A DNA stretch of 61,485 nucleotides, taken from IMG/VR virus record IMGVR_UViG_3300028031_000002, positions 1 through 61,485 of that record, one strand, 5' to 3'. Source of the DNA: a virus. Positions 190-40,649 of this stretch are shown piece by piece. The notes under the pieces were generated by a model. It did not search any database and was not told the DNA's origin. It worked only from the letters and a program-made list of their open reading frames with translations. The position numbers and the translations under genes are program-made. Position 1 is the first letter of the stretch. The number at the start of each line of letters is the position of its first letter.

Positions 190-880
190 CTTGCAGTAAT
201 CTCATAACGATGGTTCAAAATGGTTCAAAATGAACTTTAAAATTGAACCAAACCCACCTTCAACACATTGAAAACACAATAGAAACAACTAGATTCGATG
301 TAAATCTTTTTGAAACTTTTATAATTTGTGTTGAACCGTTTTGAAACTTATAGAAACAATTGTGAACCACACTGAAACTTACTGAACCATATTGAAACCT
401 GCGGAACCATTGCATACGATTTGTAAAATAAAATTTAATAACTTACTCTATACGTCCGTAGACATTGTAGGGGGATCATAAATAGCTAATTTTTGCAACA
501 ATTATTTCGCTAAAATACAATTAAATTATTAAATATATTAGATACAAATATCAACACATTAGCCCTAAAATGTGCAATATAGTTGCACATAGTGCTTTTA
601 TGGTGCTAAAGTTCTTATATAGTCCATATGAAGCTATGAGTATATGTTATAGATGCACTTGGTTGGGCTTTGTTTCTCTATGGTTCAAATAAATATCAAA
701 AGTTTGGGTACAGCCATCAAAGGTTGATAATGGCAACAATAGCAGTGGAGTATGCTCCTAAATGAGTCTAAATAGTTTCTATTGTGACTCATTTAGTTTC
801 TATTCGGTGCTATGTAGTTTCATTACCGTTTTAATGTTGGTACAAAGTGTGTCTATATTGTTTCTTTTAAAAGCCTTTTT
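190..880. promoter_or_regulatory. origin/centromere-like iteron region A
   Basis: No ORF of 60 aa or more. Eight nGAAMC iterons start at 332, 342, 352, 363, 373, 383, 393 and 403. A 36-nt block at 473..508 and an 18-nt block at 659..676 are identical to region B and are separated by the same 150-nt AT-rich spacer. Three inverted GTTTC iterons lie at 775, 796 and 817, with a 21-nt period. Confidence 0.6.
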
Positions 881-11377: not shown

Positions 11378-11384
11378 AAAAAGG

Positions 11385-15910: not shown

Positions 15911-15939
15911 TTGACAAGATGGATTAGATACAGTATAAT
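15911..15939 (+). promoter_or_regulatory. sigma70-type promoter (TTGACA-17-TATAAT), second of the pair
   Basis: Near-identical copy of the 15790..15847 block, 49 nt upstream of the ATG at 15988. Confidence 0.75.
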
Positions 15940-15987
15940 ATATTTAAAGATTAAGAAACAACAACATAAACTTTAATAGGAATTAAA

Positions 15988-16644
15988 ATGAAACATTCAA
16001 ACGTTAATATTATTAGTACTGAAATGAGAGAAGCATATAAAACAGTAGGTAGCGACATTGTTACTAGAAATGCCATTTTTCAACCTTCAGGACGGTTTTT
16101 AACCCCAGTAGATTCAATTGAACATTTTGAATTTAAAGATTTCGGATTATTAGAAGCAGATTTACAAGAATTACAAAGTTTAAAAGATGCCAACATTGAC
16201 AATTTACCGAATAATACATCACCATTCGTTATTCAAATTGGTTTTGATGACATGGAACCTATTTATCAAGCAATAGACCAAAGATCCTCACAATTGATTG
16301 AAGCCGCTGAAAAATTAAATATTGAGTTATTATCAATAATCATTTTAAGCCCACGTGATGAGGACTATACACCAGTCAAAACAACAGAAGTTGAAAAAGT
16401 GAAAGAAGCTGCAAAAACTACCGAAGTTACCAAAACTATAGAAGTTGCAGAAATTGAAGAAATAAAAACAGAAGAAACCGTAAAAATGGCACAAAATGGC
16501 GTTAAGATTACAAAGAAAAACGGAGACACAAAATGGGCTAAAAGTTGGGTCAAACGAGCAATTGCAAAAGACCAAATTGAAAATCCTAATGCGGATTATG
16601 AAGTAGTAGAAATTGAAAATAAATTTGAAATTTACCGTAAATAA
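15988..16644 (+). CDS. early protein: ParB-N-like N-terminal region, E/K/T/V low-complexity linker, C-terminal WAKSWVKRAI module
   Basis: 218-aa ORF behind two consensus promoters, with an AGGA RBS. Paralogous in architecture to 16717..17508. Confidence 0.7.
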   Translation: MKHSNVNIISTEMREAYKTVGSDIVTRNAIFQPSGRFLTPVDSIEHFEFKDFGLLEADLQELQSLKDANIDNLPNNTSPFVIQIGFDDMEPIYQAIDQRSSQLIEAAEKLNIELLSIIILSPRDEDYTPVKTTEVEKVKEAAKTTEVTKTIEVAEIEEIKTEETVKMAQNGVKITKKNGDTKWAKSWVKRAIAKDQIENPNADYEVVEIENKFEIYRK

Positions 16645-16647
16645 GTC

Positions 16648-16676
16648 TTGACAAGACGGAACCAGTGCAGTATAAT
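16648..16676 (+). promoter_or_regulatory. sigma70-type promoter (TTGACA-17-TATAAT)
   Basis: TTGACAagacggaaccagtgcagTATAAT. The ORF-track TTG start at 16648 is the -35 hexamer itself. Confidence 0.75.
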
Positions 16677-16716
16677 GTTTTCAAAGAGTAAGAAAAACAA
16701 TTTAAAGGTATTTGAA

Positions 16717-20081: not shown

Positions 20082-20777
20082 ATGCGTCAATATATAACTT
20101 TAAAAATGCTTAAACGGCTACTATTTGATGGCAATACAATAACTTTTGGTGACAGAAGTCTTAAAGGCACTGTAATTGACAATAGAACCATCAAGAAGCC
20201 AGACAATTTAGCACTTTATTTGAACAAAGTAAATGGGGTCTATTTGGAATGGTATCATAAAGAAGAACTAATCAAAGTAATTTATGTCGGCAAGACATTA
20301 AAAGAGTATTATCTTGCACTTATATTGACTGAGGATATTTTATTATTTGGGCAATATAAACCGCCATTTTCTATGGAGTGTTTAAGTTTATCATATAGTT
20401 CATATTCAGAACTACTTTTATATCTAAGTAATAAATTTAATTTACAGTTGAATATAGTCTGTAATGGCACTTTTACGCTTAAATTAAACGATATAAGCAT
20501 TTATGAGTCTGAACAACGGCAAGAAATCTTATTATACCTATACATAGGCTTACAAAGTTTAGTTAAAATTGCAGAAATTGAGCCTACCGAGTGGCAAAAA
20601 TCTTTAATAGAACCTGGTACTGTACCTTTAAAGAGGAAATCCATTGTTACATATTGTAAAGTACCCCCGAACATAATGGGTAATCTTTTAAAGCATCCTA
20701 AAGTGCGTAATTTAGATGTGTTTTTAGCAAATAAAATTATTTTAAAATTCAAAACCTTAACGGTGGCAATAGAATGA
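20082..20777 (+). CDS. hypothetical protein
   Basis: 231-aa ORF with an ATGA overlap to dut. Confidence 0.6.
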   Translation: MRQYITLKMLKRLLFDGNTITFGDRSLKGTVIDNRTIKKPDNLALYLNKVNGVYLEWYHKEELIKVIYVGKTLKEYYLALILTEDILLFGQYKPPFSMECLSLSYSSYSELLLYLSNKFNLQLNIVCNGTFTLKLNDISIYESEQRQEILLYLYIGLQSLVKIAEIEPTEWQKSLIEPGTVPLKRKSIVTYCKVPPNIMGNLLKHPKVRNLDVFLANKIILKFKTLTVAIE

Positions 20778-21229
20778 AATTCAAGAAAATATCAAAAATA
20801 GCAACTTTCGAGAGGGCAACAAATGGCTCGGCAGGATACGATTTAACTGCTTGTACCCAAAGTTTCGATGGAAGCACTTTAACAGTCTTTTTAGGGGTCG
20901 TAGTAGAAATACCGGATGGCTATGTAGGATTACTAATCCCGCGTTCTTCAACATACAAGAAATATGGTTTAACATTATCAAATAGCGTTGGTGTGATTGA
21001 CTCTGATTATAGGGGTGAATTAATGGCAACTTTTACAACTAGCATCGCCACATTGCAATCACAAGTACAACTTGGTGCAAAAATAATGCAATTGTTGTTG
21101 ATTAAGTGTAATACACCTGAACCAGAAGAAACAGACAAATTAAGTCTACCAAAAACAGGTAGTTTACCAAAAAGAGCTAGAAAAGTACCTATTAAGACGA
21201 AAAAAAACAACACTTTAGCCGCACTTTAG
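20774..21229 (+). CDS. dut: dUTPase (trimeric family) with a non-canonical C-terminus
   Basis: Motifs GSAGYDL, IPRSS, GVIDSDYRGEL and KIMQLLL are present. The usual C-terminal RGxxGFGS motif is absent and replaced by a K/R-rich tail. Confidence 0.85.
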   Translation: MKFKKISKIATFERATNGSAGYDLTACTQSFDGSTLTVFLGVVVEIPDGYVGLLIPRSSTYKKYGLTLSNSVGVIDSDYRGELMATFTTSIATLQSQVQLGAKIMQLLLIKCNTPEPEETDKLSLPKTGSLPKRARKVPIKTKKNNTLAAL

Positions 21230-21259
21230 TTGCCTTTTATTGCACTTTAGAGGTTCTTT

Positions 21260-21619
21260 ATGAATGATTTAGATATATTACGCTCTAAATATATGGAACT
21301 TGTGGAACTTTCAAAGTCAAATAAGGTGCCATGTTATGTTGCTAGTGTCGTAATTGGTCTGACACCTGTCACATATTTGACTGCATTGTCTCTTTTAGGT
21401 GAAGAAGAAGGAGACGACAAGATATTAATGACTTTACGGCAAAGTGATTTTGCACAGTATGTTTCATTAATAAATGCACCTGAAGAAAATGAGGTACAAT
21501 TAAAGTTGTTTGAGCCACTGTTTCTTTTTCCAGAAAATGCAAATTCTGAAGTTACCACATTTAAAGTAATTTTTACCGAAAGTGCGGAAAAAGAAACACC
21601 AAAGAGTATAAATATATGA
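21260..21619 (+). CDS. hypothetical protein
   Basis: 119-aa ORF with an AGAGG RBS. Confidence 0.55.
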   Translation: MNDLDILRSKYMELVELSKSNKVPCYVASVVIGLTPVTYLTALSLLGEEEGDDKILMTLRQSDFAQYVSLINAPEENEVQLKLFEPLFLFPENANSEVTTFKVIFTESAEKETPKSINI

Positions 21620-22125
21620 AGAAACTAGTATTATTTTCAGGTGTACAACGGAGTGGAAAGACTTACGGTGCAAATACTTTAGCTAAAATCTTTGAGGGGC
21701 AATTAGTAAAAACAGAAATCAAAGGTTTCATAATTAAAACCCATTCAAAGTTACATTACTGCAAGTTAATTGGCGGCGAACTGGGTTATAAAGAGAATTA
21801 TACTGTTCATAAGGCTATTTTAGAGCATTTGATGAGTCTCATCATGAGTTCTTTACGCTCAGATAAGAATTTAATCGTACTAGATAGAGGCTTAATAGAC
21901 GTTCTAATGTATTTTAAGAGTGGTAAACACCATAAAGACGATTTAAAATCTTTAATAATTTCCGTAAAGACTAAACTGTTTTATATACAAACGCTATTTG
22001 ATTTACATACTATCTTTCATCCATTACCGTTATCAAAATACATCACAGAACAATTAAAGCCTTCATACGAGCTATTAAGAGCAAATTATGTGCATTGTGA
22101 GAAGGCTTTAAATGAGCATTATTGA
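21616..22125 (+). CDS. P-loop NTPase, possibly a (deoxy)nucleotide kinase
   Basis: GVQRSGKT Walker A and LIVLDRG, with the size and context of nucleotide-metabolism genes. Substrate unknown. Confidence 0.5.
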   Translation: MKKLVLFSGVQRSGKTYGANTLAKIFEGQLVKTEIKGFIIKTHSKLHYCKLIGGELGYKENYTVHKAILEHLMSLIMSSLRSDKNLIVLDRGLIDVLMYFKSGKHHKDDLKSLIISVKTKLFYIQTLFDLHTIFHPLPLSKYITEQLKPSYELLRANYVHCEKALNEHY

Positions 22126-23611
22126 AACTATAAATAACTTTAACATTACGCCGTCAGGTAAAATGCTCATAAATAGTAAAAAATCACGTATTTTCATTAG
22201 CGGTGCGGTAGGTAGTGGAAAAAGTACCGCGGCAATGATTGCGCTAGTAAAGCGCGGGATGGAACAACCCTTATATGGTGGTGTTAGGCGTTCTAGGCTG
22301 TTACTTTCAAGGTCAACTCGCCCTGAAATCCTAATGACTCTTCTAAAGACTTTTTTAATGCTATTTCCAACGACTAAAATGAAGTATGGGCATCCGATAA
22401 CTGGTACATTATCACTGTTGAACGATAAGAATGAACTTTGTGTATTAGAATTGGTCTTTCTAGCTGTTGGAAACAAAAAGGACGTGGACAAAATAAAGTC
22501 GTTTGAAATTACATGGGGTTATTTAAATGAGGTTACTGGTATACCATATGAAGTTTATGTGGCATACTTAAATCGCATTGGTAGATACCCATCAAAGATG
22601 AATGGAGGTGTAAACTCCTATGGCATAATATGTGACACTAACGCTTTTCCTACCACTCATTGGTTAAAAGAAAAGTTCTATAAAGACTTTCCTGTAATAT
22701 GTCCTGAAACAGGTGATTTTTTAGAGACTGATGATATGTTACTTATTAGGCAACCACCGGCTTTAAAAATGTTTCAAACTAAGGTTAAGGCGAATAAGTA
22801 TGCCAATAGTATTGGTTTCACGGTACATAAAAGTTTAAATAACCAATATTTCGTACAAAATCCACATTGTGACAACTTGACAAACTTACCTGATAAGTAT
22901 TATACTGCTTCAATTGAAGCTAAAACCACCCCAGACATTCGTGTAAACTATATGGGGCATTTTATGAGTGATGATGTGGGTAGTGCGGTATGTTACCCAA
23001 TGTTTAAGGAATATTTGCACATAACAGAAGAAACACAAAACCCTAAAAGTGCGTCTTTGGTAGCCTTGGGATGGGACTTTGGATTAACTCCGGCGTGTGT
23101 AATAACATATACAACAATAGTAAAGGATGAGGACTGTAATGCCATTTATAAAGTGCATGTTGCTGGTGAAGTATTAGGCATAAATGTTGGTTTAGAACAA
23201 TTTGTACCAGAGGTTACGTTAAAGCTAAATGAATTGGGAATCCAAATTAGTGACACACTCTCTTTTATAGATGTGGCAGGACAACAGCGTGCGCAAAGTG
23301 ATGAAAGTACATGTTTATCGGTACTGAACAAGTATGAATTTCAAACGGGTGGCACCGTAACTCAAAATGTAATGAGTAGACTAGAAGCGGTACGTAATTT
23401 GTTCTATACTGAGGGACAATTTACTGTTCACAGTGGTTGCACGTCCTTAATCCAAGGCTTTATCTCAGATTATAAATTCAGTGATTTAATGTTGATCAAA
23501 GGAATATTGAAACCTGACAAAGACAACAGCCATATACAGGACGCATTACAATATGTAGCGTTGGGAATAGACACATTATATGACATTGATGAGTCAATCA
23601 CAGGTTTTTAG
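22112..23611 (+). CDS. terL: terminase large subunit
   Basis: Walker A GAVGSGKS, Walker B-like ITWGYLNE, the nuclease-domain segment GWDFGLTPACVI and the C-terminal HIQDALQYVA. Confidence 0.85.
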   Translation: MSIIETINNFNITPSGKMLINSKKSRIFISGAVGSGKSTAAMIALVKRGMEQPLYGGVRRSRLLLSRSTRPEILMTLLKTFLMLFPTTKMKYGHPITGTLSLLNDKNELCVLELVFLAVGNKKDVDKIKSFEITWGYLNEVTGIPYEVYVAYLNRIGRYPSKMNGGVNSYGIICDTNAFPTTHWLKEKFYKDFPVICPETGDFLETDDMLLIRQPPALKMFQTKVKANKYANSIGFTVHKSLNNQYFVQNPHCDNLTNLPDKYYTASIEAKTTPDIRVNYMGHFMSDDVGSAVCYPMFKEYLHITEETQNPKSASLVALGWDFGLTPACVITYTTIVKDEDCNAIYKVHVAGEVLGINVGLEQFVPEVTLKLNELGIQISDTLSFIDVAGQQRAQSDESTCLSVLNKYEFQTGGTVTQNVMSRLEAVRNLFYTEGQFTVHSGCTSLIQGFISDYKFSDLMLIKGILKPDKDNSHIQDALQYVALGIDTLYDIDESITGF

Positions 23612-23787
23612 CTAGATGGTAATTCTCTGACAGGTGCTTATATATTATAGCATCTGTCAATAGAATGGGCTTCCTCGCAAACTGCGCTTTTAAAGCCCTT
23701 TGATAGTACCATTCTGCTATTGCTAAAGCTTTGATAAAACCAAAACTTCAAAAGTGACTTTTTATCCTTTAGACTCAACTAGTTACA
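23612..23787 (+). repeat. 176-bp intergenic element, copy F5
   Basis: Begins immediately after the terminase TAG (23609..23611). Confidence 0.9.
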
Positions 23788-23869
23788 TATTATTGGGTTT
23801 TTTAGCAGTGCTTTTTTATTTGGAAAGTTATAACACATTGAAATTTAACACGAAAAGGGTTCTATTATT

Positions 23870-24679
23870 TTGAAAAACTTTACTGGCATTGATAGTGCCT
23901 ATTTAAGATTGCTTTGGAAGGTGTTAAACAGCGGCGAACTGATACAATCAAGAAATTCTGAAGTAGTTGCATTAACCAACACGCACATAAAGGCAGACTG
24001 TAGTAATCATAAAATGCCTATAGTGTCTTTGAAAAAGACTAATTATAAGAGTGCAATCACCGAACTTATATGGTTTTTGAAGGGTGACACTAACATAAAA
24101 TACTTAAACGATCGTGGTATACATATTTGGGATCAATGGGCTGACAAAGAAGGTAATTTAGGTAAAATTTATGGTTATCAATGGGCGTTTCAAATTGAAA
24201 ACGTTCTTTTTGAACTAAAGGAAAATCCCTTTTCACGGCGTTTGATGGTTAATAGTTGGAACTATTCTGAACTAGATGATATGAACTTACCACCATGTCA
24301 TTATAATTGGCAACTATTGTGCTATGAAAATGACAACGGTACAATAGACCTAGATATGGTAGTCTCAATGAGATCAAGTGATCTTTTTGTTGGTTTACCG
24401 TTTAATTTAGTCAATTATGGTACATTACTACACCTCATAAGTCATCATGTGGGCTATAATGCACGAAACTTACATATAAATATGGCATCTGCTCATATTT
24501 ACTGTTCTCATATAGAGACTGTAAAAACTTTACTTGATCGTAGTATCACACCGTACAAACAAAGTACAATAACGTTATTGCACGACGCATCATTAAGTTT
24601 ACCTGAATTGGTACCAGAGACCATCGTAATTAATGGTTATGAGTCAGGAAAGTTTTTAAAAGTCAATGTTTATAAATAA
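23870..24679 (+). CDS. thyA: thymidylate synthase (ThyA family)
   Basis: SRRLMVNSWN, LPPCH, MRSSDLFVGLPFNLVNY and AHIY align with E. coli ThyA motifs. Apparent TTG start. Confidence 0.85.
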   Translation: MKNFTGIDSAYLRLLWKVLNSGELIQSRNSEVVALTNTHIKADCSNHKMPIVSLKKTNYKSAITELIWFLKGDTNIKYLNDRGIHIWDQWADKEGNLGKIYGYQWAFQIENVLFELKENPFSRRLMVNSWNYSELDDMNLPPCHYNWQLLCYENDNGTIDLDMVVSMRSSDLFVGLPFNLVNYGTLLHLISHHVGYNARNLHINMASAHIYCSHIETVKTLLDRSITPYKQSTITLLHDASLSLPELVPETIVINGYESGKFLKVNVYK

Positions 24680-27042: not shown

Positions 27043-28101
27043 ATGATTAATGTAACAGATAAACTAATAAATGTCGGTACCCGTGTTATAGGTGATAATA
27101 AAATAATTTTAGGAAATAGTGAGCCTAGGCAACCGTTGCCCGTAATGTTCCCTAATATCAGAGAAAGATTTTTAAATAGTAGGTTTAATTTTTGGACACC
27201 GAACGAAATTGCAATGGCTGAAGACAAACTACAGTACTCTAATGGTACTATTTCTGAGCAAGAAAAAGCCATTATAGCCGCTAATATCAGCTATTTGACA
27301 ATAGGTGACACCTTAGTGCCAGACAATATTGTAAATCATATATTACCAAGAATAAAAACGCCTGAACTGCGCCAATACCTAAGATGGCAAATTGCAGAAG
27401 AAGCCAACCATATTGAATCTTATCTGTACATTTTAGAATCTTTGGGTATTGATACTGAAGGACAAGGTAAAATATTTAACATTTATCAAACTAATGAAGC
27501 TATTGCGGAAAAAGTGAACTGGAACTTAATGAACTCTCAACAACTAAATGACGATGTTCCGAGTGAAGACCTATTATATCAAGAATCGTTAATAATTAAT
27601 TTAGTTGCGTACTTAATGTTTGAACTAGTGTTTTTTCCTGCTGGTTTTTCACAGATATTTGCTTTTGCACGCAACGGAAAAATGCGTAATATGGCGCAAC
27701 AATATACCTTCATTTGGCGCGATGAGGCACTTCATGCCGATAACGCGGCGTTTATGTTACGACAGTTAATGTATTTCGAGAATGACAGGTCTATTTTAAA
27801 TAGAAGCCTTCTAAAGCGCATTTATAACGTTTTATATGAAGGCTTTGAACTTGAAATGGCACATATTCGCAGTGTATTTAGCGGTTTTGATATTGTGGGA
27901 TACTCTATATCCGATTATGAAAAATACGTTAAATTTCTAATAAACCAATTGTGTAAACAGCTTGACATTGATATAGTTTTCACGGATGTTCTACATAACC
28001 CAATACCATGGGTATTAGCGTACCAACTAGGCACCGAAGCTAACTTTTTTGAAAGTAGAGTTAAGGAATATAAAGTAGGCGTATCATTGGATTTTAATTA
28101 A
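27043..28101 (+). CDS. nrdB: ribonucleotide reductase class I, small subunit
   Basis: Di-iron ligand motifs EEANHIESY and RDEALH. 352 aa, directly downstream of nrdA. Confidence 0.95.
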   Translation: MINVTDKLINVGTRVIGDNKIILGNSEPRQPLPVMFPNIRERFLNSRFNFWTPNEIAMAEDKLQYSNGTISEQEKAIIAANISYLTIGDTLVPDNIVNHILPRIKTPELRQYLRWQIAEEANHIESYLYILESLGIDTEGQGKIFNIYQTNEAIAEKVNWNLMNSQQLNDDVPSEDLLYQESLIINLVAYLMFELVFFPAGFSQIFAFARNGKMRNMAQQYTFIWRDEALHADNAAFMLRQLMYFENDRSILNRSLLKRIYNVLYEGFELEMAHIRSVFSGFDIVGYSISDYEKYVKFLINQLCKQLDIDIVFTDVLHNPIPWVLAYQLGTEANFFESRVKEYKVGVSLDFN

Positions 28102-28139
28102 CTGTTGAAATTCAGTTTATGTAATGTTTCTTTTTTGTT

Positions 28140-28770
28140 TCAAAAACGTCTTTTAAATTGAACCAAACCATTGCACAACACTATGAAAACATTGTAGAAG
28201 TGCTTAACTTGGTAATGGAAACGCGCTGAAACAGTGTCTAAAATTGCTGAAACATGTTGAAACAAGTTAGAACCATATTGAACCGTGCAGAACCAATTTG
28301 AAACTTGTAGAACCATTGTTACCAGATTGTAAAATAAATTATAATAACTTACGTGGTATTCCCCTACATACTGTATATGGATCATAAATAGCTAATTTTT
28401 GCAACAATTATTTCATTAAAATTGAATTTAATTTTTAAATAAATTATCGTTTAATATAAGCAGCTTACCCATTTTTACCCTAAAAAAGTTGCTAAACGTG
28501 TTATTATAGTGCTATACTGCTAATATAAGCTAAGTAAACTTATGCGTACACGTTATTAACGCATTTGGTTGGGCTTTGTTTCATATATGTTCAATTAAAT
28601 CTGAAACGGGTCCGCAGAAGGCTATATGGTTGCATGAATACACAAAGAGTGTCCAAAAGTACCCATTCACGTCTCAAATGGTTTTTAGTTCCGCTCAAGA
28701 CCGTCACAATATGTTTTTATATGTTTCCATACAGTTTCATTAGAGTACTCTCTACACATAAGTATAACAT
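28140..28770. promoter_or_regulatory. origin/centromere-like iteron region B (paralog of region A)
   Basis: Nine nGAAMC iterons start at 28217, 28227, 28247, 28257, 28269, 28279, 28289, 28299 and 28309. Identical blocks lie at 28379..28414 and 28565..28582 with a 150-nt AT-rich spacer. GTTTC repeats lie at 28723 and 28734. The region fills the convergent gap between nrdB and the minus block. Confidence 0.6.
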
Positions 28771-28775
28771 AACTT

Positions 28776-29546
28776 TTATTCAACATCAACGATGTTTAAA
28801 TCAATAAAAATACGCATTATTGGGTCTAACGCATTGGTTATAACTTTAGATTGTACCATATGACCTTTGTTTGGCTTATCTAAAAAAGAAAGTCCAGCAG
28901 GAATTTTCATAGTTACTAAATTAGATCTTTTTAAAGCACTTTTACGTGCTTTGATAAATCTATACAAGAGAATTACAAGCGGTAACGATAAAGCACCATA
29001 TTGTGCTTTAATTGTCTTTTCTGAAGCTACTTTTATAAGGTCTTTAGGTGTAAACTTGTTATTTAACGTGCCGCCAATGTCCATTGATTCGGTGCATTTA
29101 GCGGCTAAAAGGGTGTTTTTTATTATTATGAAACATGACCATTTACCGTACTTGGCTGTATCTAATAATCCTAAATCTATTACTGAGATACCTTCAAAAG
29201 AATCTGATTTCAGTGACCTATATACTTCACTAAATGCGCTTGTTGTAATAAACAAGTAACCAGCGTCTACAAAAGGCTTTAAAAGTTCTGGATTAAGCTT
29301 TTTAACATAACTTAAAAACGGTACTGGTGCTATATACTCTTTCCCTTCATTATCTTTAAATAGATCACCATAGCGTTTACCGGCGGCATATAGTGAATTC
29401 TGTATACTTAAATCTACTAATGAGGCTAGTTTATTGCAATTATTAGCAAAACTAGGTGTTTTTTTAGCAATTTCAAGCGATTTTGCAACTGAAAACAATT
29501 TTGTAGCTAATATCTCATTTGTGAATGAAAACTTTTGATATGACAT
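28776..29546 (-). CDS. hypothetical protein adjacent to iteron region B
   Basis: 256-aa ORF with an AGGAAG RBS and its own promoter at 29600..29628. No motif recognised. Confidence 0.65.
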   Translation of the reverse strand: MSYQKFSFTNEILATKLFSVAKSLEIAKKTPSFANNCNKLASLVDLSIQNSLYAAGKRYGDLFKDNEGKEYIAPVPFLSYVKKLNPELLKPFVDAGYLFITTSAFSEVYRSLKSDSFEGISVIDLGLLDTAKYGKWSCFIIIKNTLLAAKCTESMDIGGTLNNKFTPKDLIKVASEKTIKAQYGALSLPLVILLYRFIKARKSALKRSNLVTMKIPAGLSFLDKPNKGHMVQSKVITNALDPIMRIFIDLNIVDVE

Positions 29547-29599
29547 TATAAAACTTCCTATTAAAATTAATACAACTTTGTTTGATGTCTATGGGTACC

Positions 29600-29628
29600 A
29601 TTATACAGTAAAGTACCCTTAGTTGCAA
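29600..29628 (-). promoter_or_regulatory. sigma70-type promoter (TTGCAA-17-TATAAT)
   Basis: On the minus strand: TTGCAActaagggtactttactgTATAAT, between the primase-helicase stop and CDS 28776..29546. Confidence 0.7.
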
Positions 29629-29636
29629 CCTTTTTT

Positions 29637-32600
29637 TTAAAAAATTTCGTCGCCAATTAGTTGTATGTCTTCAATGTCTTCAAAAGCTTCTAGTTTATTC
29701 TCAAATGTGTTTTCTGCAACATCTATATCTGCCAAGTCTTCTGGGGCTATATTAGCCATTAATTTATTATAGCAATAAGTCACTAATTTTGCTCTTTCTG
29801 AGTTCGCAGTTATTACGTCGTCAATAATAGCGTATCCAATACGTTTTGCGTACATTTTAAGTAATTTTACAGCTATCTCATCGGAGTGTTCACCTAATAA
29901 TACCTCTCTTGAGTACGGCATTTGTAGGCTCAATGCGGATAATACTGAACTAATTAGTACTTCATGAGAGTATTTATTAATTAACTTAGAGAATCTTTCA
30001 GTTGCCTCAGCTAATGAGCTTGTATTATAACAATTTAGAAACATATGAACGCCTTCAAAATCAGTGCGCAACAGACTACCCAAATAGGTACTCTCAAATT
30101 CAAGTTTATTTGCCACATTTGGTAAATCAACTTCTAATGCAATTAAATTTCCTATTGAAAGAAATTTATTTTCTAATAGTTGCAGACCATCCACAGTTTC
30201 AATTTGTGCTTCATTTAACACTATCGCGATGTTTTCTTTGTCTGTAGCAATAACTTTACCCGATTTAATCGCTTTTAACTGTATTTCGTCCATATCATGG
30301 ATTATTGCGGCACATTCTGTAATATATTTTTGATTATATTTGGTCAATTCTTCAGATAAATAGTGATTTAATTCCTTTATAAGTCGGCGATATTCACCAC
30401 TTTTAGAGAAACTGTCTGGCATTTTCTGCACTTTATAACCTGCATTTTTTAGCATCAAATGTATTTCTTGTTCACTATCCGCAATATTAAAGGCGGTTAC
30501 TGCCAATAATAATTGTCTTTCACCAACACTTAAACGCTCGAAATTCACTAATTTATGTGAGCTACTCTCGGTAGCTTTAACTTTATTTTGAAAACTTGCC
30601 GCACTTGAGCCATCAAATAAATGTATTGTGTTTGTACGATTTCTTGCTCGGTTTAATAATTGTAACATTTCAGCGCGTGTAATGTTACCGTAAAAGTTGC
30701 CATAAACTGCGCGTTGTTTTCCTATAAAAGATATTCCGGTACTAACGGATGGTGTTACTATAATATCTTGGTAATTGGCATCTAATGCGTTTATATCTTT
30801 TAATTCATCGTCTTTTGTCATTGAGTTAATTACTTTCGCAGTTCTTCCTAGGCTCAATGATAGGGCGTACATTTTCTTTGATTCTTGTAACGAATCAGTC
30901 ACAAATAAAGTTGCTTCTGCGCTCATAGTAGAAATTGCACTTGCATATATTAAATGCAGCTCTCCTGCCGTAGCAGTTAAGTTTACATCTATAACTGCAT
31001 TATTATTACTTTTACGGTCATAACCGGCTAAAAAGATTGACGGTGTTTCGTTAAACATTTCTTTGAAAAATACGTATACCGCATCATTATTGTCTGCACT
31101 TAATGCAATTAGTTTTTTACCCTTGTTTAAAGACTCTTGCATACCATTAATGATTTCTAACTTATGTTTTCTAATTCTTTGGCGTTCTAATAATAACTTA
31201 ATTATTAAATGAGATTCATCCATTATAATATGGGTGTTAGCCAAGTATTTGTACGAGCTGTCTATTGTAGTTATGACTATTTTAGAATCATTTGCGTTTT
31301 TATCTTGATAAGTGCTACATTTGATACCGTGAGATGTTAATGTCGCATGTGTTTGCTTGACTAAGGCTATATTAGGTAAAACTATTGTAACAGCACCCTC
31401 AAGGGTTTTTAAATGCTTTATAATGATGTTTGCTGTCTTACCTGATCCCATTGGGGCGGTTATTAGCTCAATATTATTCCTATTGGACTTGAACCATTCA
31501 GTAGTGTCTAACTTTGGGTATCCTTCAGACATATCAATTGTAGATAGCATTACTGGACATGATTCTGAAATTTTAACGAACTTTTGGGGTATTATTGATA
31601 GTAGCTCAAGCATTGAAGCAATTACATTTTCAACAGTCTTAAATGCAGGTCTTTTTGCTAAGGTTATTATAGCTTTGTTGCAATGTAATGAAGTTAGTTC
31701 ATTACTAGATTCTGTAATAAGTTGTTCTAGTGCTTTAACGTCTTTTAGCGGTAAGCTGTCAATCATTTGCACAGCATTATGCGCCAATGACAATGCAATT
31801 GAGTTGGAATAAAACGTCATTGGTTTATCTATGGATAAGTTAAACGCTTCTTTGGAAGCAACATTATACCAATCATATAAATCAAAGTCATCAGTATCCT
31901 TAAATGCACCACTGGCTACAGCCATAGTTATATACTGATTTAGGATAGCCACGTTATGCCCTTTATTAGCCAATAAATTTGCAGCTTGTAACGTGCCTTC
32001 TCGTCCTGCTTTGTCGTTATCTGGAACTAAAATAAATTGTTTTAATCCTATTATAGCCGCCTTTTTAACTTGTTTAGCGTGTTTAATTAGATTTGATATA
32101 CCATTAGTAGCCGCAACGGTAATTGGACCGTTAGTATGTGCTAATCTGCCGGCACAAATTGCATTAACTAAGCCTTCAGCTAATACAATAACGGTGCTAC
32201 CGGGTGCTTGATGCCCACAAAAGCCAACAACACCGTTTTCTTGCATATGCTTAATTTTACCTGAAATGCGTAAGGAAGACACTATTGTAGTGTCTTCAGC
32301 TAAGCCATTGGCTATAATTGTATTTAAATTGGTAATCGGTGTATAAAGGTCTTTATCATGTGCTTTTGCACCAAAGTCTTGTAAAAGACTTAACTCTGCT
32401 GCTCTTAAAGAGCTTTTTTTATTACTTATATAGTCAGTGTTTTTAACAGCTTCTTTTGAAGCAGCTAACTTTGAAAACAAACTTGTGGCTATTTTTCTAC
32501 TTTGATTTGATACGCAAATTTTAGCTGTAGGCACTCTATCAGAGTCTTCGATAGTTATTGCATTGTTTCTGGTGGATGCTGCAATAGAAAAACTTTTGCC

Positions 32601-32894
32601 AATAAAGCGTTCTTGTACTGAAGGTGAAAATGCGTTAAAGGTTGCGGATATATTCGCACCTTTTCCATTTATATAAACAGAACATCTAAGGTTGCCGCGG
32701 TCAGCCAAAACAAATTTATTTTCACCGTCGTCCAGTTTTTCTATTAAAGATTCTGCACCGTCTTCTAAAGATAAACCTAAATAATCTTTGTTTGGGTAGT
32801 CGTTAATGTCTAAATTAGTAGAAATTTCGTCACATACGGCTTTAATTTTTACAATTAATTTCTCTGCTTCTGTTGCAGTTATTTTGTAGCTCAT
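29637..32894 (-). CDS. putative primase-helicase (unknown N-domain, Toprim, SF2 DExH helicase)
   Basis: Toprim VLAEG...ILVPDNDKAGREG. Helicase motifs APMGSGKT, IIMDESH, LSADN, TPSVSTGISF and QLLNRARNR. Confidence 0.8.
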   Translation of the reverse strand: MSYKITATEAEKLIVKIKAVCDEISTNLDINDYPNKDYLGLSLEDGAESLIEKLDDGENKFVLADRGNLRCSVYINGKGANISATFNAFSPSVQERFIGKSFSIAASTRNNAITIEDSDRVPTAKICVSNQSRKIATSLFSKLAASKEAVKNTDYISNKKSSLRAAELSLLQDFGAKAHDKDLYTPITNLNTIIANGLAEDTTIVSSLRISGKIKHMQENGVVGFCGHQAPGSTVIVLAEGLVNAICAGRLAHTNGPITVAATNGISNLIKHAKQVKKAAIIGLKQFILVPDNDKAGREGTLQAANLLANKGHNVAILNQYITMAVASGAFKDTDDFDLYDWYNVASKEAFNLSIDKPMTFYSNSIALSLAHNAVQMIDSLPLKDVKALEQLITESSNELTSLHCNKAIITLAKRPAFKTVENVIASMLELLSIIPQKFVKISESCPVMLSTIDMSEGYPKLDTTEWFKSNRNNIELITAPMGSGKTANIIIKHLKTLEGAVTIVLPNIALVKQTHATLTSHGIKCSTYQDKNANDSKIVITTIDSSYKYLANTHIIMDESHLIIKLLLERQRIRKHKLEIINGMQESLNKGKKLIALSADNNDAVYVFFKEMFNETPSIFLAGYDRKSNNNAVIDVNLTATAGELHLIYASAISTMSAEATLFVTDSLQESKKMYALSLSLGRTAKVINSMTKDDELKDINALDANYQDIIVTPSVSTGISFIGKQRAVYGNFYGNITRAEMLQLLNRARNRTNTIHLFDGSSAASFQNKVKATESSSHKLVNFERLSVGERQLLLAVTAFNIADSEQEIHLMLKNAGYKVQKMPDSFSKSGEYRRLIKELNHYLSEELTKYNQKYITECAAIIHDMDEIQLKAIKSGKVIATDKENIAIVLNEAQIETVDGLQLLENKFLSIGNLIALEVDLPNVANKLEFESTYLGSLLRTDFEGVHMFLNCYNTSSLAEATERFSKLINKYSHEVLISSVLSALSLQMPYSREVLLGEHSDEIAVKLLKMYAKRIGYAIIDDVITANSERAKLVTYCYNKLMANIAPEDLADIDVAENTFENKLEAFEDIEDIQLIGDEIF

Positions 32895-32929: not shown

Positions 32930-32958
32930 ATTATACAGTATTCAAGAAAATTTTGCAA
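32930..32958 (-). promoter_or_regulatory. sigma70-type promoter (TTGCAA-17-TATAAT)
   Basis: On the minus strand: TTGCAAaattttcttgaatactgTATAAT, 36 nt upstream of the primase-helicase ATG. Confidence 0.7.
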
Positions 32959-33057
32959 CATATTTTAATGTTTTTTTTATTTTTGCGTATTCTCTAATAT
33001 ATTCAATAGCTTGAAGTATTCCATAGTACAATTCAAAACTATAAAAATCAATAAAAC

Positions 33058-33233
33058 TATAACTCGTTGAAATTAAATGCAAATAAGGCACTTTTGAAGT
33101 TTTGGTTTTATCAAAGCCTTTGTCACAACAGAACGGTACCATCAAAGGGGTTTGAAAGTGCAGTTTGTGGGGAAGCCCATTCTATTGACAAAGACTATAA
33201 TATATAAGCACCTGTCAAAGAATCACCATCTAG
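33058..33233 (-). repeat. 176-bp intergenic element, copy R3
   Basis: Starts 7 nt after the stop of 33241..33801. Lies upstream of promoter 32930..32958 and the primase-helicase gene. Confidence 0.9.
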
Positions 33234-33240
33234 CTACATA

Positions 33241-33801
33241 TTATGGGTTGGGTGTTGTTGGCGGTACCACGTTTCCGCTATCGTCCATATAATTGGCACC
33301 AATTGATTTTAAATAGTCCATTACAAAATCTATTTTATGCTCAATTACGTCCAATCGCATGGAAAGACTTCCGGAAGTGTGTACGCCAAGTGTTCTTGAT
33401 CTAAATCCGGATACTTTTTCCGTATAAGTGTACGTATAAGAATCAACTAAAAAGTTTTCTACCAATAATAACCAATCTTTTGCGGGTACACCAAATGCGC
33501 TTTTTGCGTCAATATCATCTTGCCAAGTATTGTTTGTCACTATACTTGCCGTATTTGTTGCTATTGCATTAGTATTGGTAGTCACTGAAGTATTTAGGGA
33601 TGCAATATCCAGTCTATTTGTTGTTGTACGTGATGTGTTTGTATCTATAGATGTATTTAGCGTGTTTATATCTGTATCATTTGTACCTATATTGGTCTCT
33701 ATTACGGTTAAGATGTTTTCTATGTCATCTAACATTGAGTAATATTGCGCAAACCAGGGTACCGTACCCGCAGGTATTTTATGTTGTGATAAAGTTGCCA
33801 T
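33241..33801 (-). CDS. fibre-like structural protein
   Basis: The central T/N-rich periodic segment (TNIGTNDTDINTLNTSIDTNTS...) resembles the fibre protein 44535..45353. Confidence 0.6.
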   Translation of the reverse strand: MATLSQHKIPAGTVPWFAQYYSMLDDIENILTVIETNIGTNDTDINTLNTSIDTNTSRTTTNRLDIASLNTSVTTNTNAIATNTASIVTNNTWQDDIDAKSAFGVPAKDWLLLVENFLVDSYTYTYTEKVSGFRSRTLGVHTSGSLSMRLDVIEHKIDFVMDYLKSIGANYMDDSGNVVPPTTPNP

Positions 33802-34130
33802 TATGTGTATTTACCTTTAAATTCATTGTAAGTTAATCCGAATACTCCAAATGGAGCTTGTTTTGATAGTCCTGCTTCTAACTTGTCATAGTAGGTACAA
33901 TCGGTACCGTATTCAAGCTTATCTTGTTCTAATTTAGCTCTAACCGTTGCTAACCGTACTCTTCTATAGTTCACCCTATTTCTATTGAACGCCCTTCTAG
34001 TGACCGATAAAGATGCTCTTGCTGCACCCGTTTTGATTGGTGTCCTCATTAAGATTTGATCAAATAAACCCTTTAAGTCTTTACTAGACTCGTTAAGAGC
34101 GTCATTATATACTTGTTCTATAACGTCCAT
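33801..34130 (-). CDS. HK97 gp10-like head-tail/tail completion protein
   Basis: RTPIKTGAARASL matches the aPvdTGxLrxS signature of that family. AAGGAG RBS. Confidence 0.6.
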   Translation of the reverse strand: MDVIEQVYNDALNESSKDLKGLFDQILMRTPIKTGAARASLSVTRRAFNRNRVNYRRVRLATVRAKLEQDKLEYGTDCTYYDKLEAGLSKQAPFGVFGLTYNEFKGKYT

Positions 34131-34313
34131 TTTTGCACTCCTTATACTTATATAAGTATGTCAGAAAATTCAATTGATAAAAAATAAAAGTTTAAAAAAG
34201 TGCTTTATTCGCTATTTTTAAACTTAATTTTTTAGTAAAAATGGCTTTTTTTTACTAATTTAGCTTTTTTTAAGCGGTTTTTTTAAAGTAAACAACACTA
34301 AAAATATTTTATT

Positions 34314-34541
34314 ATGTTTAATTTATCTGATTTCTTTGAAAGATTTCCAAAAACTCGTGACATTGACAATACATTATTCAAACTATTGGCAGTAAAGTTT
34401 GCATTTAAGGGTGAAAAAGATACAATAACTTTAAAAACCTCACAACTTGATACACTATGTAATCATGCGTTTAATTTAATACATGAACATAGACAAACAC
34501 ATTTATTCGCGGACTATTTATCTCACGAGGCGCACATATGA
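34314..34541 (+). CDS. hypothetical protein
   Basis: 75-aa ORF, ATGA-coupled to the next gene. Confidence 0.5.
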   Translation: MFNLSDFFERFPKTRDIDNTLFKLLAVKFAFKGEKDTITLKTSQLDTLCNHAFNLIHEHRQTHLFADYLSHEAHI

Positions 34542-40160: not shown

Positions 40161-40380
40161 TAAAATTAGTCTGTCTAACGGTTTATTTGAGCATCAAAAT
40201 GTGCGTTTTATTAAGTCCATTAACGATATTACAATATTACAATTATGCACCGACAGTATTAAATACGATTTATTATTGGGCGCAATTGTTGAGTATCAAT
40301 ATCAGCAATATAAAATTATCAAAGTACAGATAGGCACCGCATACACTAAACTAACTACATTAAACACTAGCTGTTTTTAG
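40138..40380 (+). CDS. hypothetical protein (start uncertain)
   Basis: 80-aa ORF overlapping the previous ORF by 23 nt. Its stop abuts repeat copy F6. Confidence 0.4.
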   Translation: MQGTKVISKISLSNGLFEHQNVRFIKSINDITILQLCTDSIKYDLLLGAIVEYQYQQYKIIKVQIGTAYTKLTTLNTSCF

Positions 40381-40556
40381 CTAGATGGTGATTCTTCGAC
40401 AGATGCTTATATATTATAGTCTTTGTCAGTAGAATGGGCTTTTACACCAACCGAGCTTTTAAAGCCCTTTGATAGTAACACTCTTGCATTACTATTGCTT
40501 TGATAAAACCAAAACTTCAAAAGTGCCTTTTTAGCCTTTAGACTCAATGAGTTACA
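40381..40556 (+). repeat. 176-bp intergenic element, copy F6
   Basis: Begins right after the TAG at 40378..40380. Its downstream extension to about 40615 is nearly identical to the extension of R6. Confidence 0.9.
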
Positions 40557-40649
40557 ACTTTAGCACTTTATTTGTTCTCATTTTTTAAATGGAACTTTGT
40601 AAAGTGTTGTTTTTATTGCATTAATACAGTTTTAAAAGGAAAATTTTTT

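What the first reader, a model, noticed from the sequence alone, without database searches (positions are those of the whole stretch)
28140..28770. Second paralogous iteron region, nearly antipodal on the 61.4-kb circle and next to the replication operon
Region B has the same architecture as region A:
- nine phased iterons at 28217..28314
- the identical 36-nt block (28379..28414)
- an unrelated AT-rich spacer of exactly the same 150-nt length
- the identical 18-nt block (28565..28582)
- inverted GTTTC repeats

Both copies have the same orientation and lie about 28 kb apart on a 61,358-bp genome.

Region B fills the convergent gap between nrdB and the minus operon. That operon encodes an unknown 256-aa protein (28776..29546, with its own promoter) and the primase-helicase.

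A short segment between the iterons and the 36-nt block is inverted between the copies (tgtagggg in A, cccctaca in B).

Inference: blocks and spacing are conserved while the spacer sequence has diverged. That argues for selection on architecture, not a recent duplication. Two origins, or an origin plus a centromere or pac-like site, are both possible.
Basis: partly seen in the sequence, partly recalled or inferred. Interest (0 to 1): 0.7.

Follow-up and report, generated by a model that had tools for sequence, protein, structure and literature searches.

The report
Duplicated iteron-type phage replication origin
An otherwise unknown 61-kb phage carries two diverged copies of a roughly 600-base non-coding module that looks like a replication origin, and one copy lies just after the operon that encodes a plasmid-Rep-like primase-helicase; the module is real but is a familiar kind of element.

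Summary
Region B (28102-28775) and region A (about 205-826) are paralogous non-coding modules in the same orientation, 27,906 nt apart on a 61,358-bp circle.

Each module has:
- ten 10/11-nt slots, nine with a GAAMC core; no other 110-nt window in the genome has more than two
- an identical 36-nt block
- the genome's two least stable 40-mers, directly after that block
- an identical 18-nt block
- reverse-oriented GAAAC copies on both flanks

One claim is wrong. The 150-nt "spacer" is not unrelated: it is 63% identical without gaps (null 29%). The pair is therefore an old duplication, with selection visible on the iteron cores (86% against 47% identity) and on the 36-nt block (P about 5e-5).

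Best reading, confidence about 0.55: an iteron-type replication origin present in two copies. The neighbouring 1085-aa Toprim plus SF2-helicase protein resembles CyRepA plasmid initiators. It forms a conserved gene pair with the orphan 256-aa protein in four distant relatives.

Third-codon GC skew places the origin-like switch near A and the terminus-like switch near 34 kb. B may therefore be a secondary origin or an SPP1-oriR-like or P4-crr-like auxiliary site.

No close relatives exist, so conservation could not be tested.

The parts
28126..28141 (-). Region B, left flank: two reverse-oriented iteron cores (GTTTC at 28126 and 28137), 11 nt apart
28155..28169 (+). Region B: conserved left box AAATTGAACCAAACC, identical to 240-254 in A
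28218..28314 (+). Region B iteron array: ten 10/11-nt slots, nine with a GAAMC core (consensus about tTGAAMCaT). The slot at 28239 is degenerate (TAAAA).
28327..28352 (+). Region B: conserved AT-rich box TTGTAAAATAAATTATAATAACTTAC, 24 of 26 identical to 421-446 in A
28379..28414 (+). Region B: invariant 36-nt block GGATCATAAATAGCTAATTTTTGCAACAATTATTTC. It contains the only GATC of the region.
28398..28457 (.). Region B: candidate DNA-unwinding element. The 40-mer at 28407-28446 is the second least stable in the whole genome.
28489..28518 (+). Region B: promoter-like site (TTGCTA, 18-nt spacer, TG-TATACT) whose hexamer positions are kept in A (583-612). Weak evidence only.
28565..28582 (+). Region B: invariant 18-nt block TTGGTTGGGCTTTGTTTC. 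It ends in a reverse-oriented iteron core (GTTTC at 28578).
28723..28742 (-). Region B, right flank: two reverse-oriented cores (28723 and 28734). The 10-mer AGTTTCATTA at 28733-28742 is shared with A (816-825).
212..226 (-). Region A, left flank: two reverse-oriented cores (GGTTC at 212 and 222)
312..408 (+). Region A iteron array: ten slots, nine with a GAAMC core. The slot at 322 is degenerate.
473..508 (+). Region A: copy of the invariant 36-nt block
501..560 (.). Region A: candidate DNA-unwinding element. The 40-mer at 511-550 is the least stable in the genome.
659..676 (+). Region A: copy of the invariant 18-nt block
672..864 (-). Region A, right flank: six reverse-oriented cores (672, 682, 775, 796, 817, 860). 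Three of them are spaced 21 nt apart.
28776..29546 (-). 256-aa orphan protein. It is the conserved downstream partner of the primase-helicase in four distant relatives, and its function is unknown.
29637..32894 (-). 1085-aa Toprim plus SF2 (DEAD/ResIII) helicase protein related to CyRepA1-family plasmid replication initiators. It is the candidate initiator.
27043..28101 (+). nrdB, the gene that bounds region B on the left (convergent with the 256-aa gene)

Best explanation
Region B is one of two diverged copies of an iteron-type replication-origin module of a virulent-looking tailed phage.

Proposed mechanism (inferred):
1. A phage-encoded initiator binds cooperatively to the ten helically phased GAAMC sites, and to the oppositely oriented sites on the other side of the AT-rich centre. 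The best candidate is the adjacent 1085-aa Toprim plus SF2-helicase protein, which resembles CyRepA plasmid Rep proteins. It may act together with its conserved 256-aa partner.
2. The resulting nucleoprotein complex, with the invariant 36-nt block at its edge, opens the very unstable 40-60 nt that follow (28398-28457 in B; 501-560 in A).
3. The helicase/primase is loaded there.

The codon-third-position skew suggests that initiation shaping the genome occurs near copy A. Copy B lies about 46% of the circle away. It is therefore either a secondary origin or an auxiliary initiator-binding site. Such a site could arrest forks or trigger a theta-to-sigma switch, as proposed for SPP1 oriR, or act as a cis enhancer or handcuffing partner, as for P4 crr.

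Shown: the anatomy, its uniqueness in the genome, the selective conservation, the duplex instability, and the Rep-like neighbour.
Inferred: binding, melting, and which copy fires.
For: - Phased iterons occur only at A and B. The cores are far better conserved between the copies than the positions between them: 43/50 against 26/55, P = 3e-5. This is the pattern expected for protein-binding sites kept in helical register.
- The two least stable 40-mers of all 61,358 positions are 511-550 and 28407-28446. They are homologous positions, directly after the 36-nt block.
- The 36-nt block is invariant within a pair that is otherwise about 66% identical (P about 5e-5).
- Reverse-oriented cores lie on the far side of the AT-rich centre in both copies. 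Six in 210 nt (A) and three in 210 nt (B), against about 0.37 expected from the genome-wide density of 1.74 per kb.
- The module is non-coding. It has stops in all frames and no shared ORF. It keeps its form whether the flanks are convergent gene ends (B) or an operon start (A), so it does not simply serve the neighbouring genes.
- The flanking genes are not paralogous, so only the element was duplicated.
- B abuts the operon of a Toprim plus DEAD/ResIII protein. That protein matches the NCBIfam CyRepA1 plasmid replication protein at E 2.3e-23. Its only plasmid-database hits are CyRepA1-family rep genes. CyRepA1 and CyRepA2 are experimentally supported Rep proteins with the same two-domain layout (PMC9978351, PMC10079941).
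- Cumulative plus-strand GC3 skew is lowest between about 61.4 kb and about 5 kb, a zone that includes A, and highest at 34.1 kb (gene-order permutation P = 0.015).
- Precedents:
  - SaPI origins use 6-12 penta- or hexanucleotide iterons just downstream of rep, or of a fused pri-rep gene. They have an AT-rich centre and oppositely pointing iterons on either side (PMC9371898).
  - SPP1 has two distant origin copies, each made of direct repeats plus a DUE and both bound by gp38 (PMC6316719).
Against: - There is no experimental or coverage evidence of initiation or binding.
- No DnaA boxes occur in either copy, and no IHF site is conserved between the copies.
- The 10-nt unit with a 5-nt core is much shorter than classical 17-22-bp plasmid iterons.
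- In the four distant relatives, the primase-helicase/250-aa gene pair has no iteron array next to it and no match to an A/B profile. Those contigs are only 4-9 kb long.
- In the relatives the pair lies directly upstream of the dUTPase-to-TerL block on the same strand. B's adjacency to the operon in this phage may therefore follow a rearrangement.
- GC3 skew shows no switch at B.
- Comparable 10-nt phased GAAAC/GAACC arrays occur in unrelated viral contigs in other contexts, for example between TerL and portal in L021. The array alone is therefore not diagnostic.
- No DNA-binding domain could be identified in either candidate protein. The structure models were poor or had no fold match.
Confidence: 0.55

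Rival explanations
1. Transcriptional control element or non-coding RNA locus. The phased sites would bind a phage regulator that controls a conserved internal promoter, and the 36-nt to 18-nt interval would be transcribed into a small RNA or an antisense RNA against the 3' end of the downstream minus-strand gene.
For: - A promoter-like site with an extended -10 is kept at homologous positions: 28489-28518 and 583-612 in A.
- A second promoter-like site lies at the end of the array (28316-28345, 10 of 12 matches).
- The plus strand of 440-700 and its B equivalent has a consensus fold better than column shuffles (z = -2.9, P about 0.01), with several two-sided changes.
- CyRepA1 plasmid replication is itself thought to be transcript-primed (PMC9978351). 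A transcript here would therefore not exclude an origin.
Against: - Promoter-like matches are no more frequent than in shuffled sequence.
- The consensus fold energy is weak (-18.5 kcal/mol over 261 nt). With only two sequences and several windows tested, the P value is marginal.
- The iteron part folds worse than shuffles.
- There is no Rfam family, tRNA or terminator.
- B lies between two gene ends, where no flanking gene needs a promoter.
Confidence: 0.15
2. A non-replicative protein-DNA scaffold, such as a partition centromere (parC/tubC-like), a terminase recognition (pac) site, or a nucleoid or membrane attachment site.
For: - Arrays of 10-12-bp direct repeats in helical phase are typical of ParR/TubR centromeres and of some TerS sites (general knowledge).
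- A lies upstream of a small gene (70 aa) that is translationally coupled to a 457-aa gene. This superficially resembles tubC-tubR-tubZ.
- A similar array in the unrelated contig L021 lies between TerL and portal.
Against: - The 457-aa protein appears from its sequence to have several hydrophobic transmembrane-like segments. It lacks a tubulin-type GGGTGSG motif and has no family hits.
- About 50 larger ORFs were scanned. None matched a ParA/ParM/TubZ protein, an integrase or a repressor.
- The gene content (DNA polymerase A, RNR, ThyA, dUTPase) looks virulent, so a centromere has no obvious use.
- TerL (22112-23611) is 6 kb from B and 22 kb from A.
- These functions do not explain why the genome's two least stable segments are kept next to an invariant block.
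Confidence: 0.12
3. A decaying duplicate or selfish non-coding element with no current function at B. Only A would be functional, and the identical blocks would be patches of gene conversion.
For: - The whole 390 nt is homologous and has no gaps, as expected from a simple duplication.
- Gene conversion could create short identical tracts.
- The skew shows no replication signal at B.
- B sits at a rearrangement junction relative to the synteny of the relatives.
Against: - Divergence is strongly non-uniform, and in a functional pattern: cores are kept and inter-core positions are free (P = 3e-5).
- There are no indels across 390 nt, so phasing and the 150-nt distance are preserved despite about 35% substitution.
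- The extreme duplex instability is maintained in both copies even though the AT-rich sequence itself has changed.
Confidence: 0.08

Closest known systems
SaPI (Staphylococcus aureus pathogenicity island) replication origins with self-loading Rep or fused PriRep helicases
   Same: - Very short (penta- or hexanucleotide) iterons, 6-12 per origin.
- An AT-rich centre.
- Iterons on the two sides point in opposite directions.
- The origin lies downstream (3') of the primase/helicase initiator gene, and the primase and helicase can be fused in one polypeptide (PMC9371898).
- Region B shows all of these anatomical traits.
   Different: - The helicase here is SF2 DEAD/ResIII-like and CyRepA-related, not the SaPI Rep type. 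No C-terminal winged helix was detected.
- A 256-aa gene lies between the helicase gene and the element.
- The arrangement is asymmetric: ten sites on one side and three to six on the other.
- The module is larger (about 600 nt) and is present twice.
Bacillus phage SPP1 oriL / oriR
   Same: - Two distant copies of an origin-like sequence in one lytic siphovirus genome.
- Each copy is built of direct repeats plus an AT-rich DUE, and both are bound by the same initiator.
- One copy (oriL) fires. The other is proposed to stall forks and trigger the switch to concatemeric replication.
- oriR lies in a long intergenic region that interrupts a gene module (PMC6316719).
   Different: - SPP1 oriL lies inside the initiator gene 38, whereas both copies here are intergenic.
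- No homologue of gp38, gp39 or gp40 (DnaB-type) was detected. The replication proteins here are a Toprim-SF2 helicase protein plus a family A DNA polymerase.
- The copies are 46% of the circle apart, compared with about 13 of 44 kb in SPP1.
Satellite phage P4 ori / crr with the alpha protein
   Same: - A multifunctional primase-helicase that itself recognises short repeated sites (PMC2777425, for the domain layout).
- Those sites lie in two separated cis regions that are both needed for replication (ori and crr; from my own knowledge of Ziegelin et al. 1993, not checked here).
   Different: - P4 alpha has a DnaG-type primase, an SF3 helicase and a winged helix.
- From memory, crr is a pair of 120-bp repeats without the full origin anatomy. 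Here both copies keep the DUE and the invariant blocks.
CyRepA1 / CyRepA2 cyanobacterial plasmid replicons
   Same: - The candidate initiator shares the Toprim-like plus DEXDc layout.
- It matches the CyRepA1 model at E 2.3e-23.
- The origin lies next to the rep gene, and replication depends on Rep (PMC9978351, PMC10079941).
   Different: - The score (82.9 bits) is far below the curated cut-off (200), so the protein is a distant relative and not a member.
- No iterons are mentioned for the pSYSA origin, which is proposed to be transcript-primed.
- The host element is a plasmid, not a tailed phage.
Classical iteron plasmid origins (P1 oriR/incA, R6K, RK2, pSC101) and lambda ori
   Same: - Direct repeats in helical phase next to a DUE.
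- Extra iteron sets elsewhere that modulate initiation (general knowledge; review PMC4980987 was listed but not read).
   Different: - Classical iterons are 17-22 bp. Here the period is 10-11 nt with a 5-nt core.
- No DnaA boxes were found.
- No winged-helix Rep was identified.

Membership tests
Iteron-type replication origin | Several direct repeats of one motif, in phase with the DNA helix, clustered in non-coding DNA | tested here: met
   There are 9 GAAMC cores plus one degenerate slot at 10/11-nt spacing in each copy. The genome maximum elsewhere is 2 per 110 nt.
Iteron-type replication origin | Adjacent AT-rich DNA-unwinding element | tested here: met
   Nearest-neighbour stability ranks 511-550 first and 28407-28446 second among all 40-mers of the genome. 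This is computed instability, not observed melting.
Iteron-type replication origin | Cognate initiator encoded nearby | tested here: inconclusive
   B abuts the operon of a CyRepA-like Toprim-helicase. A has no such neighbour. The relatives show no array next to the gene pair.
Iteron-type replication origin | Initiator binds the iterons; replication starts there | not testable with these tools
   This needs EMSA or footprinting, marker-frequency analysis or 2D gels. The only indirect evidence is GC3 skew, whose minimum zone includes A.
Iteron-type replication origin | Host DnaA boxes (present in many but not all such origins) | tested here: not met
   Neither copy has TTATCCACA (up to 1 mismatch) or TTWTNCACA.
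SaPI-type origin | 6-12 penta- or hexanucleotide iterons, split by an AT-rich centre, with the two sides pointing in opposite directions | tested here: met
   The forward array is at 28218-28314, the AT-rich centre at 28320-28460, and reverse cores at 28578, 28723 and 28734. A has the same layout.
SaPI-type origin | Located immediately downstream of the rep ORF | tested here: not met
   B lies downstream of the operon, but the 256-aa gene lies between it and the helicase gene. A is not near that operon.
SaPI-type origin | Rep is a SaPI-type self-loading helicase with a C-terminal winged helix | tested here: not met
   The helicase domain matches ResIII/DEAD (SF2) and CyRepA1. No winged helix was found. 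The structure model is too poor to judge (pLDDT 42.6).
SPP1 oriL/oriR-type pair | Two distant copies of a repeats-plus-DUE module in one genome | tested here: met
   The copies have an ungapped homology of about 390 nt at an offset of 27,906, and both keep the array and the unstable segment.
SPP1 oriL/oriR-type pair | gp38-type origin-binding protein, with one copy inside its gene | tested here: not met
   Both copies are intergenic. No scanned ORF matched a family annotated as a replication initiator or origin-binding protein. No direct comparison with the gp38 sequence was made.
CyRepA plasmid Rep family (for the 1085-aa protein) | Score at or above the NCBIfam curated cut-off; Toprim-like N-terminal domain plus DEXDc domain | tested here: inconclusive
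   The E-value is 2.3e-23, but 82.9 bits is below the 200-bit cut-off and the match covers residues 473-793 only. Toprim_2 and DEAD/ResIII are present. The protein is a distant relative, not a member by the curated threshold.
Type II/III partition centromere (parC / tubC) | Repeat array upstream of a small DNA-binding adaptor gene and an actin- or tubulin-like NTPase gene | tested here: not met
   A lies upstream of a 70-aa and a 457-aa gene. The 457-aa protein shows hydrophobic transmembrane-like segments on inspection, has no family hits and no tubulin signature. B has no such genes.
pac / terminase recognition site | Lies in or next to the small/large terminase genes; packaged ends map there | tested here: not met
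   TerL is at 22112-23611, which is 6 kb from B and 22 kb from A. End mapping cannot be tested here.
Known structured RNA families | Match to an Rfam covariance model or a tRNA/tmRNA | tested here: not met
   There are no Rfam matches at gathering score and no tRNA or tmRNA in the window.

The most novel reading that the evidence does not exclude
A previously undescribed phage replication module. A CyRepA-like Toprim plus SF2-helicase initiator and its conserved 250-aa partner would recognise 10-nt-phased GAAMC pentanucleotide iterons. The phage would keep two complete origin modules almost opposite each other on the circle. Copy A would fire bidirectionally. Copy B, near the skew-defined terminus, would act as an initiator-bound fork trap that converts theta replication into concatemer-producing replication. 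This would be an independent reinvention of the SPP1 oriL/oriR logic with unrelated proteins.
Probability: 0.2. Interest if true: 0.6.

Novelty: new member of a known kind. Interest (0 to 1): 0.42.

Why it matters
If confirmed, this gives a ready cis/trans pair for studying a lineage of phages with no cultured or annotated relatives: the GAAMC arrays with their DUE, and a CyRepA-like primase-helicase with its partner protein. It would extend the CyRepA-type plasmid initiators to tailed phages. It would also add a second natural example, after SPP1, of a lytic phage that keeps two full origin-like modules, which bears on how phages switch from theta to concatemeric replication. In practice, a compact origin with its Rep could serve as a replicon for the still unknown AT-rich host. 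Nothing here overturns current understanding.

Tried and rejected
Searches for relatives:
- Region B by DNA and the 1085-aa protein by translated search found nothing in the INPHARED phage collection.
- A 24-mer of the 36-nt block has no match in IMG/VR.
- Word-indexed searches with the 256-aa protein and the primase-helicase each found only the query itself. The search with DNA polymerase A found itself plus cellular Pol I at about 30% identity.
- A full HMMER scan found four distant homologues of the 256-aa protein. Their contigs (L003, L005, L006, L007; 4-9 kb) gave synteny but no iteron array and no nhmmer match to an A/B profile.
- Profile-guided locus searches gave nothing usable. They used the 256-aa family, the helicase family and TerL against IMG/VR, JGI metagenomes and GTDB genomes.

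It was therefore uninformative about homology. Two examples were inspected.

256-aa protein: there was no Pfam, PHROG, NCBIfam or PDB sequence hit. The AlphaFold model (pLDDT 59, pTM 0.61) has no fold match in the PDB or BFVD.

1085-aa protein:
- The three-sequence model was too poor to use (pLDDT 42.6), so no fold search was run on it.
- Weak PDB hits to herpesvirus origin-binding protein UL9 (E 0.3, Walker A region only) were judged not significant.

Other checks:
- Partition hypothesis: the 457-aa neighbour of A was read directly. It looks like a membrane protein.
- Paralogy of flanking genes: none was found.
- DnaA and IHF sites: none is conserved.
- RNA hypothesis: no Rfam or tRNA match and only a marginal consensus fold.
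Full report
**1. What the window is**

The window is a circularly assembled 61,358-bp genome. Its first 127 nt are repeated at the end (D17). The same circle was assembled independently as a 61,499-bp k141 contig in ENA ERZ27262698.

It is a tailed phage with 33% G+C. It encodes:
- a tape-measure protein, a portal, a major head protein and TerL
- a family A DNA polymerase
- ribonucleotide reductase large and small subunits
- thymidylate synthase and dUTPase

None of the roughly 50 larger ORFs scanned matched an integrase, a repressor or a partition protein.

The phage is an orphan:
- Region B (DNA) and the 1085-aa protein (translated search) had no match in 50,697 phage records.
- In a 5.8-billion-protein index, the 256-aa protein and the primase-helicase found only themselves. 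The polymerase found itself plus cellular Pol I at about 30% identity.

**2. The observation**

Everything positional in the finding is correct.
- GAAMC occurs nine times at 10/11-nt spacing at 28218-28314 and again at 312-408. Each array also has one degenerate slot.
- No other 110-nt window of the genome holds more than two such cores on that strand.
- The 36-nt and 18-nt blocks are exact, unique to these two places, and never matched in shuffles.
- The two regions align without a single gap at an offset of 27,906 from about 312 to about 700. Recognisable homology with small indels extends to about 205-826 in A and 28120-28743 in B.
- Region B therefore fills essentially the whole 674-nt gap between the stop codons of nrdB and the 256-aa gene.
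- A Logan assembly of SRR8439430 reproduces the right half of B base for base and breaks inside the 36-nt repeat, as a short-k assembly should.

Three details need correction.
- The 150-nt spacer is homologous, not unrelated. 94 of 150 positions are identical, against 43 +/- 5.6 for all other genome windows.
- The 18-nt identity is only marginally surprising on its own (P about 0.05). The 36-nt identity is highly surprising (P about 5e-5).
- The 8-nt "inverted segment" is at non-equivalent positions and is close to chance.

**3. Signs of selection**

The pair is an old duplication with about 34% substitution, but the substitutions are not spread evenly.
- In the array, core positions are 86% identical and inter-core positions 47% (Fisher P = 3e-5).
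- No indel has been tolerated across 390 nt, so the helical phase and the distances between blocks are preserved.
- The flanking genes are not paralogous, so the element itself was the unit of duplication.

**4. Anatomy that bears on function**

- With nearest-neighbour energies, the least stable 40-mer of the entire genome is 511-550 and the second least stable is 28407-28446. With 60-nt windows they rank second and third.
- These are homologous positions directly after the invariant 36-nt block, even though the AT-rich sequence itself has diverged.
- Reverse-oriented cores lie on the far side of this AT-rich centre (three in B, six in A). A further pair lies to the left of each array.
- The module has stops in all frames and no ORF shared between the copies.
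- B sits between two gene ends and A sits upstream of an operon, yet the module is the same. Its function is therefore not tied to expression of the neighbouring genes.
- There are no DnaA boxes and no IHF site conserved between the copies.

**5. The neighbouring proteins**

The 1085-aa protein:
- It has a Toprim domain (residues 237-319) and an SF2 DEAD/ResIII helicase domain (471-600).
- It matches the NCBIfam CyRepA1 plasmid replication protein model at E 2.3e-23 over residues 473-793. This is well below the curated cut-off, so it is a distant relative and not a member.
- Its only hits among 72,556 plasmids are cyanobacterial CyRepA1-family rep genes.
- CyRepA1 and CyRepA2 have the same Toprim-like plus DEXDc layout. 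They are experimentally required for autonomous plasmid replication from an origin next to the gene (PMC9978351, PMC10079941).

The 256-aa protein:
- It has no family, PDB or fold match.
- An exhaustive HMMER scan found four homologues at 30-33% identity.
- In all four contigs the homologue directly follows a homologue of the primase-helicase, which is 26-29% identical with E values down to 1e-67.
- The two genes are thus a conserved pair.

In the relatives, the pair lies on the same strand just upstream of a block that runs from a 231-aa gene through dUTPase to TerL. In the window phage the pair is inverted and displaced, and region B sits at that junction. No array and no A/B-like sequence occurs in the relatives' contigs. 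They cover only 4-9 kb each, so conservation of the element in relatives remains untested.

**6. Which copy might fire**

I computed third-codon-position GC skew on the plus strand.
- It is positive over 3-34 kb and negative over 34-61 kb, whatever the direction of transcription.
- The coding-strand values are +0.04 (plus-strand genes, 3-28 kb), -0.14 (minus-strand genes, 28.8-34 kb), -0.05 (plus-strand genes, 34-50 kb) and +0.15 (minus-strand genes, 50-61 kb).
- The cumulative curve is lowest between about 61.4 kb and about 5 kb, a zone that contains A. It is highest at 34.1 kb (gene-order permutation P = 0.015).
- This fits bidirectional replication from near A with a terminus near 34 kb. 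It shows no switch at B.
- The signal is modest and could be confounded by gene-class composition, so I treat it as a lead only.

**7. Explanation**

The best-supported reading (about 0.55) is an iteron-type replication origin present in two copies.
- A phage initiator would bind the phased cores and the opposed cores across the AT-rich centre. The adjacent unstable segment would open, and the helicase/primase would be loaded there.
- The candidate initiator is the CyRepA-like protein, possibly acting with its 256-aa partner.
- B is either a secondary origin or an auxiliary initiator-binding site.

Rivals:
- A regulator-controlled promoter or small-RNA locus (0.15). A promoter-like site is kept and there is a marginal consensus fold (z = -2.9). 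However, promoter-like sites are no more frequent than in shuffles, and there is no Rfam match.
- A centromere, pac site or attachment site (0.12). No NTPase was found, the 457-aa neighbour looks like a membrane protein, and TerL is distant.
- A functionless decaying duplicate (0.08). The constraint pattern contradicts this.

**8. Comparison with known systems**

- **SaPI origins** are the closest anatomical match. They have 6-12 penta- or hexanucleotide iterons, an AT-rich centre and opposed orientation on the two sides. They lie downstream of rep or of a fused pri-rep gene (PMC9371898). The helicase type differs, however, and the element here is not immediately after the helicase gene.
- **SPP1 oriL/oriR** is the closest match in logic. 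It has two distant modules of repeats plus a DUE, both bound by one initiator. One copy fires and the other is proposed to stall forks and trigger concatemeric replication (PMC6316719).
- **P4 ori/crr with the alpha protein** is a further parallel, with a multifunctional primase-helicase and two cis sites. The domain layout is from PMC2777425. The ori/crr details are from memory.
- Differences from classical plasmid iterons are the 10-nt period with a 5-nt core and the absence of DnaA boxes.

**9. Verdict**

This is a real, statistically robust and selectively maintained duplicated cis element in an unsampled phage lineage. It is most likely a new member of the iteron-origin kind, with an unusual Rep-type neighbour. 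It is interesting as an entry point to this lineage and as a possible second example of the SPP1 two-origin arrangement, but it is not a conceptual surprise. Interest is 0.42.

Noticed in passing
window 1800-2100(-), 2170-2460(+), 2609-2899(+), 10200-10490(+), 11372-11662(+), 15240-15545(-), 23599-23889(+), 32950-33250(-), 40368-40658(+), 45363-45653(+), 50050-50340(+), 53640-53945(-), 56255-56555(-), 58910-59220(-): Fourteen dispersed copies of an intergenic element of about 200-230 nt, with 75% mean column identity and long invariant stretches. One invariant core is GATGGTRATTCTTTGACRGRTGCTTATATATTATAG...TGTCA.TAGAAT; another is TTTGATAAAACCAAAACTTCAAAAGTGCC. Most copies point toward the downstream gene block, for example upstream of the DNA polymerase, the primase-helicase and the tape-measure gene. 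The hexamer spacing is not canonical for sigma-70, and there is no Rfam match. It may be a phage-specific promoter/leader cassette or a mobile regulatory element.
   Followed up: partly
window 3000-34130 versus 34314-61438: Plus-strand GC skew at third codon positions changes sign near 34.1 kb and near 61.4-5 kb, independently of gene orientation (permutation P = 0.015). This looks like a replication-type skew, with an origin near region A and a terminus at the divergent gap 34130-34314.
   Followed up: partly
window 20082-23611 and 28776-32894; loci L003, L005: In distant relatives the primase-helicase and its 250-aa partner lie directly upstream of the 231-aa/dUTPase/119-aa/169-aa/TerL block, on the same strand. 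In this phage the pair is inverted and separated from that block by thyA and nrdAB. Region B marks the junction.
   Followed up: partly
window 59856-61438 (-): The operon just left of region A encodes a 70-aa protein translationally coupled (ATGA overlap) to a 457-aa protein. The 457-aa protein shows several hydrophobic segments on inspection and has a lysine/arginine-rich C-terminal part. Neither protein matches any family.
   Followed up: partly
L021 4200-4340; L024 5960-6080: Unrelated IMG/VR contigs carry very similar arrays of a 10-nt unit repeated about 12-14 times (GCTGAAACGT and GTTGTGAACC). One lies between TerL and portal. The other lies after a giant protein that contains a PolB domain. 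Such arrays recur in viral non-coding DNA in more than one context.
   Followed up: partly
window 15591-15753; 15788-15964 and 16617-16701; 3952-6454: Three further repeat features: a 78-nt tandem repeat (2.1 copies, 97% identical); three near-identical strong sigma-70-like promoters (TTGACA, 17-nt spacer, TATAAT); and four copies of an 80-nt repeat at 3952, 4750, 5421 and 6375 among the early genes.
   Followed up: no
window 4067-4756, 12296-12661, 50603-51190: Two paralogous proteins (49% identical), the first with a KilA-N domain match, and one Bro-N/T5orf172 protein. These are DNA-binding-type domains and are alternative candidates for binding the arrays.
   Followed up: no
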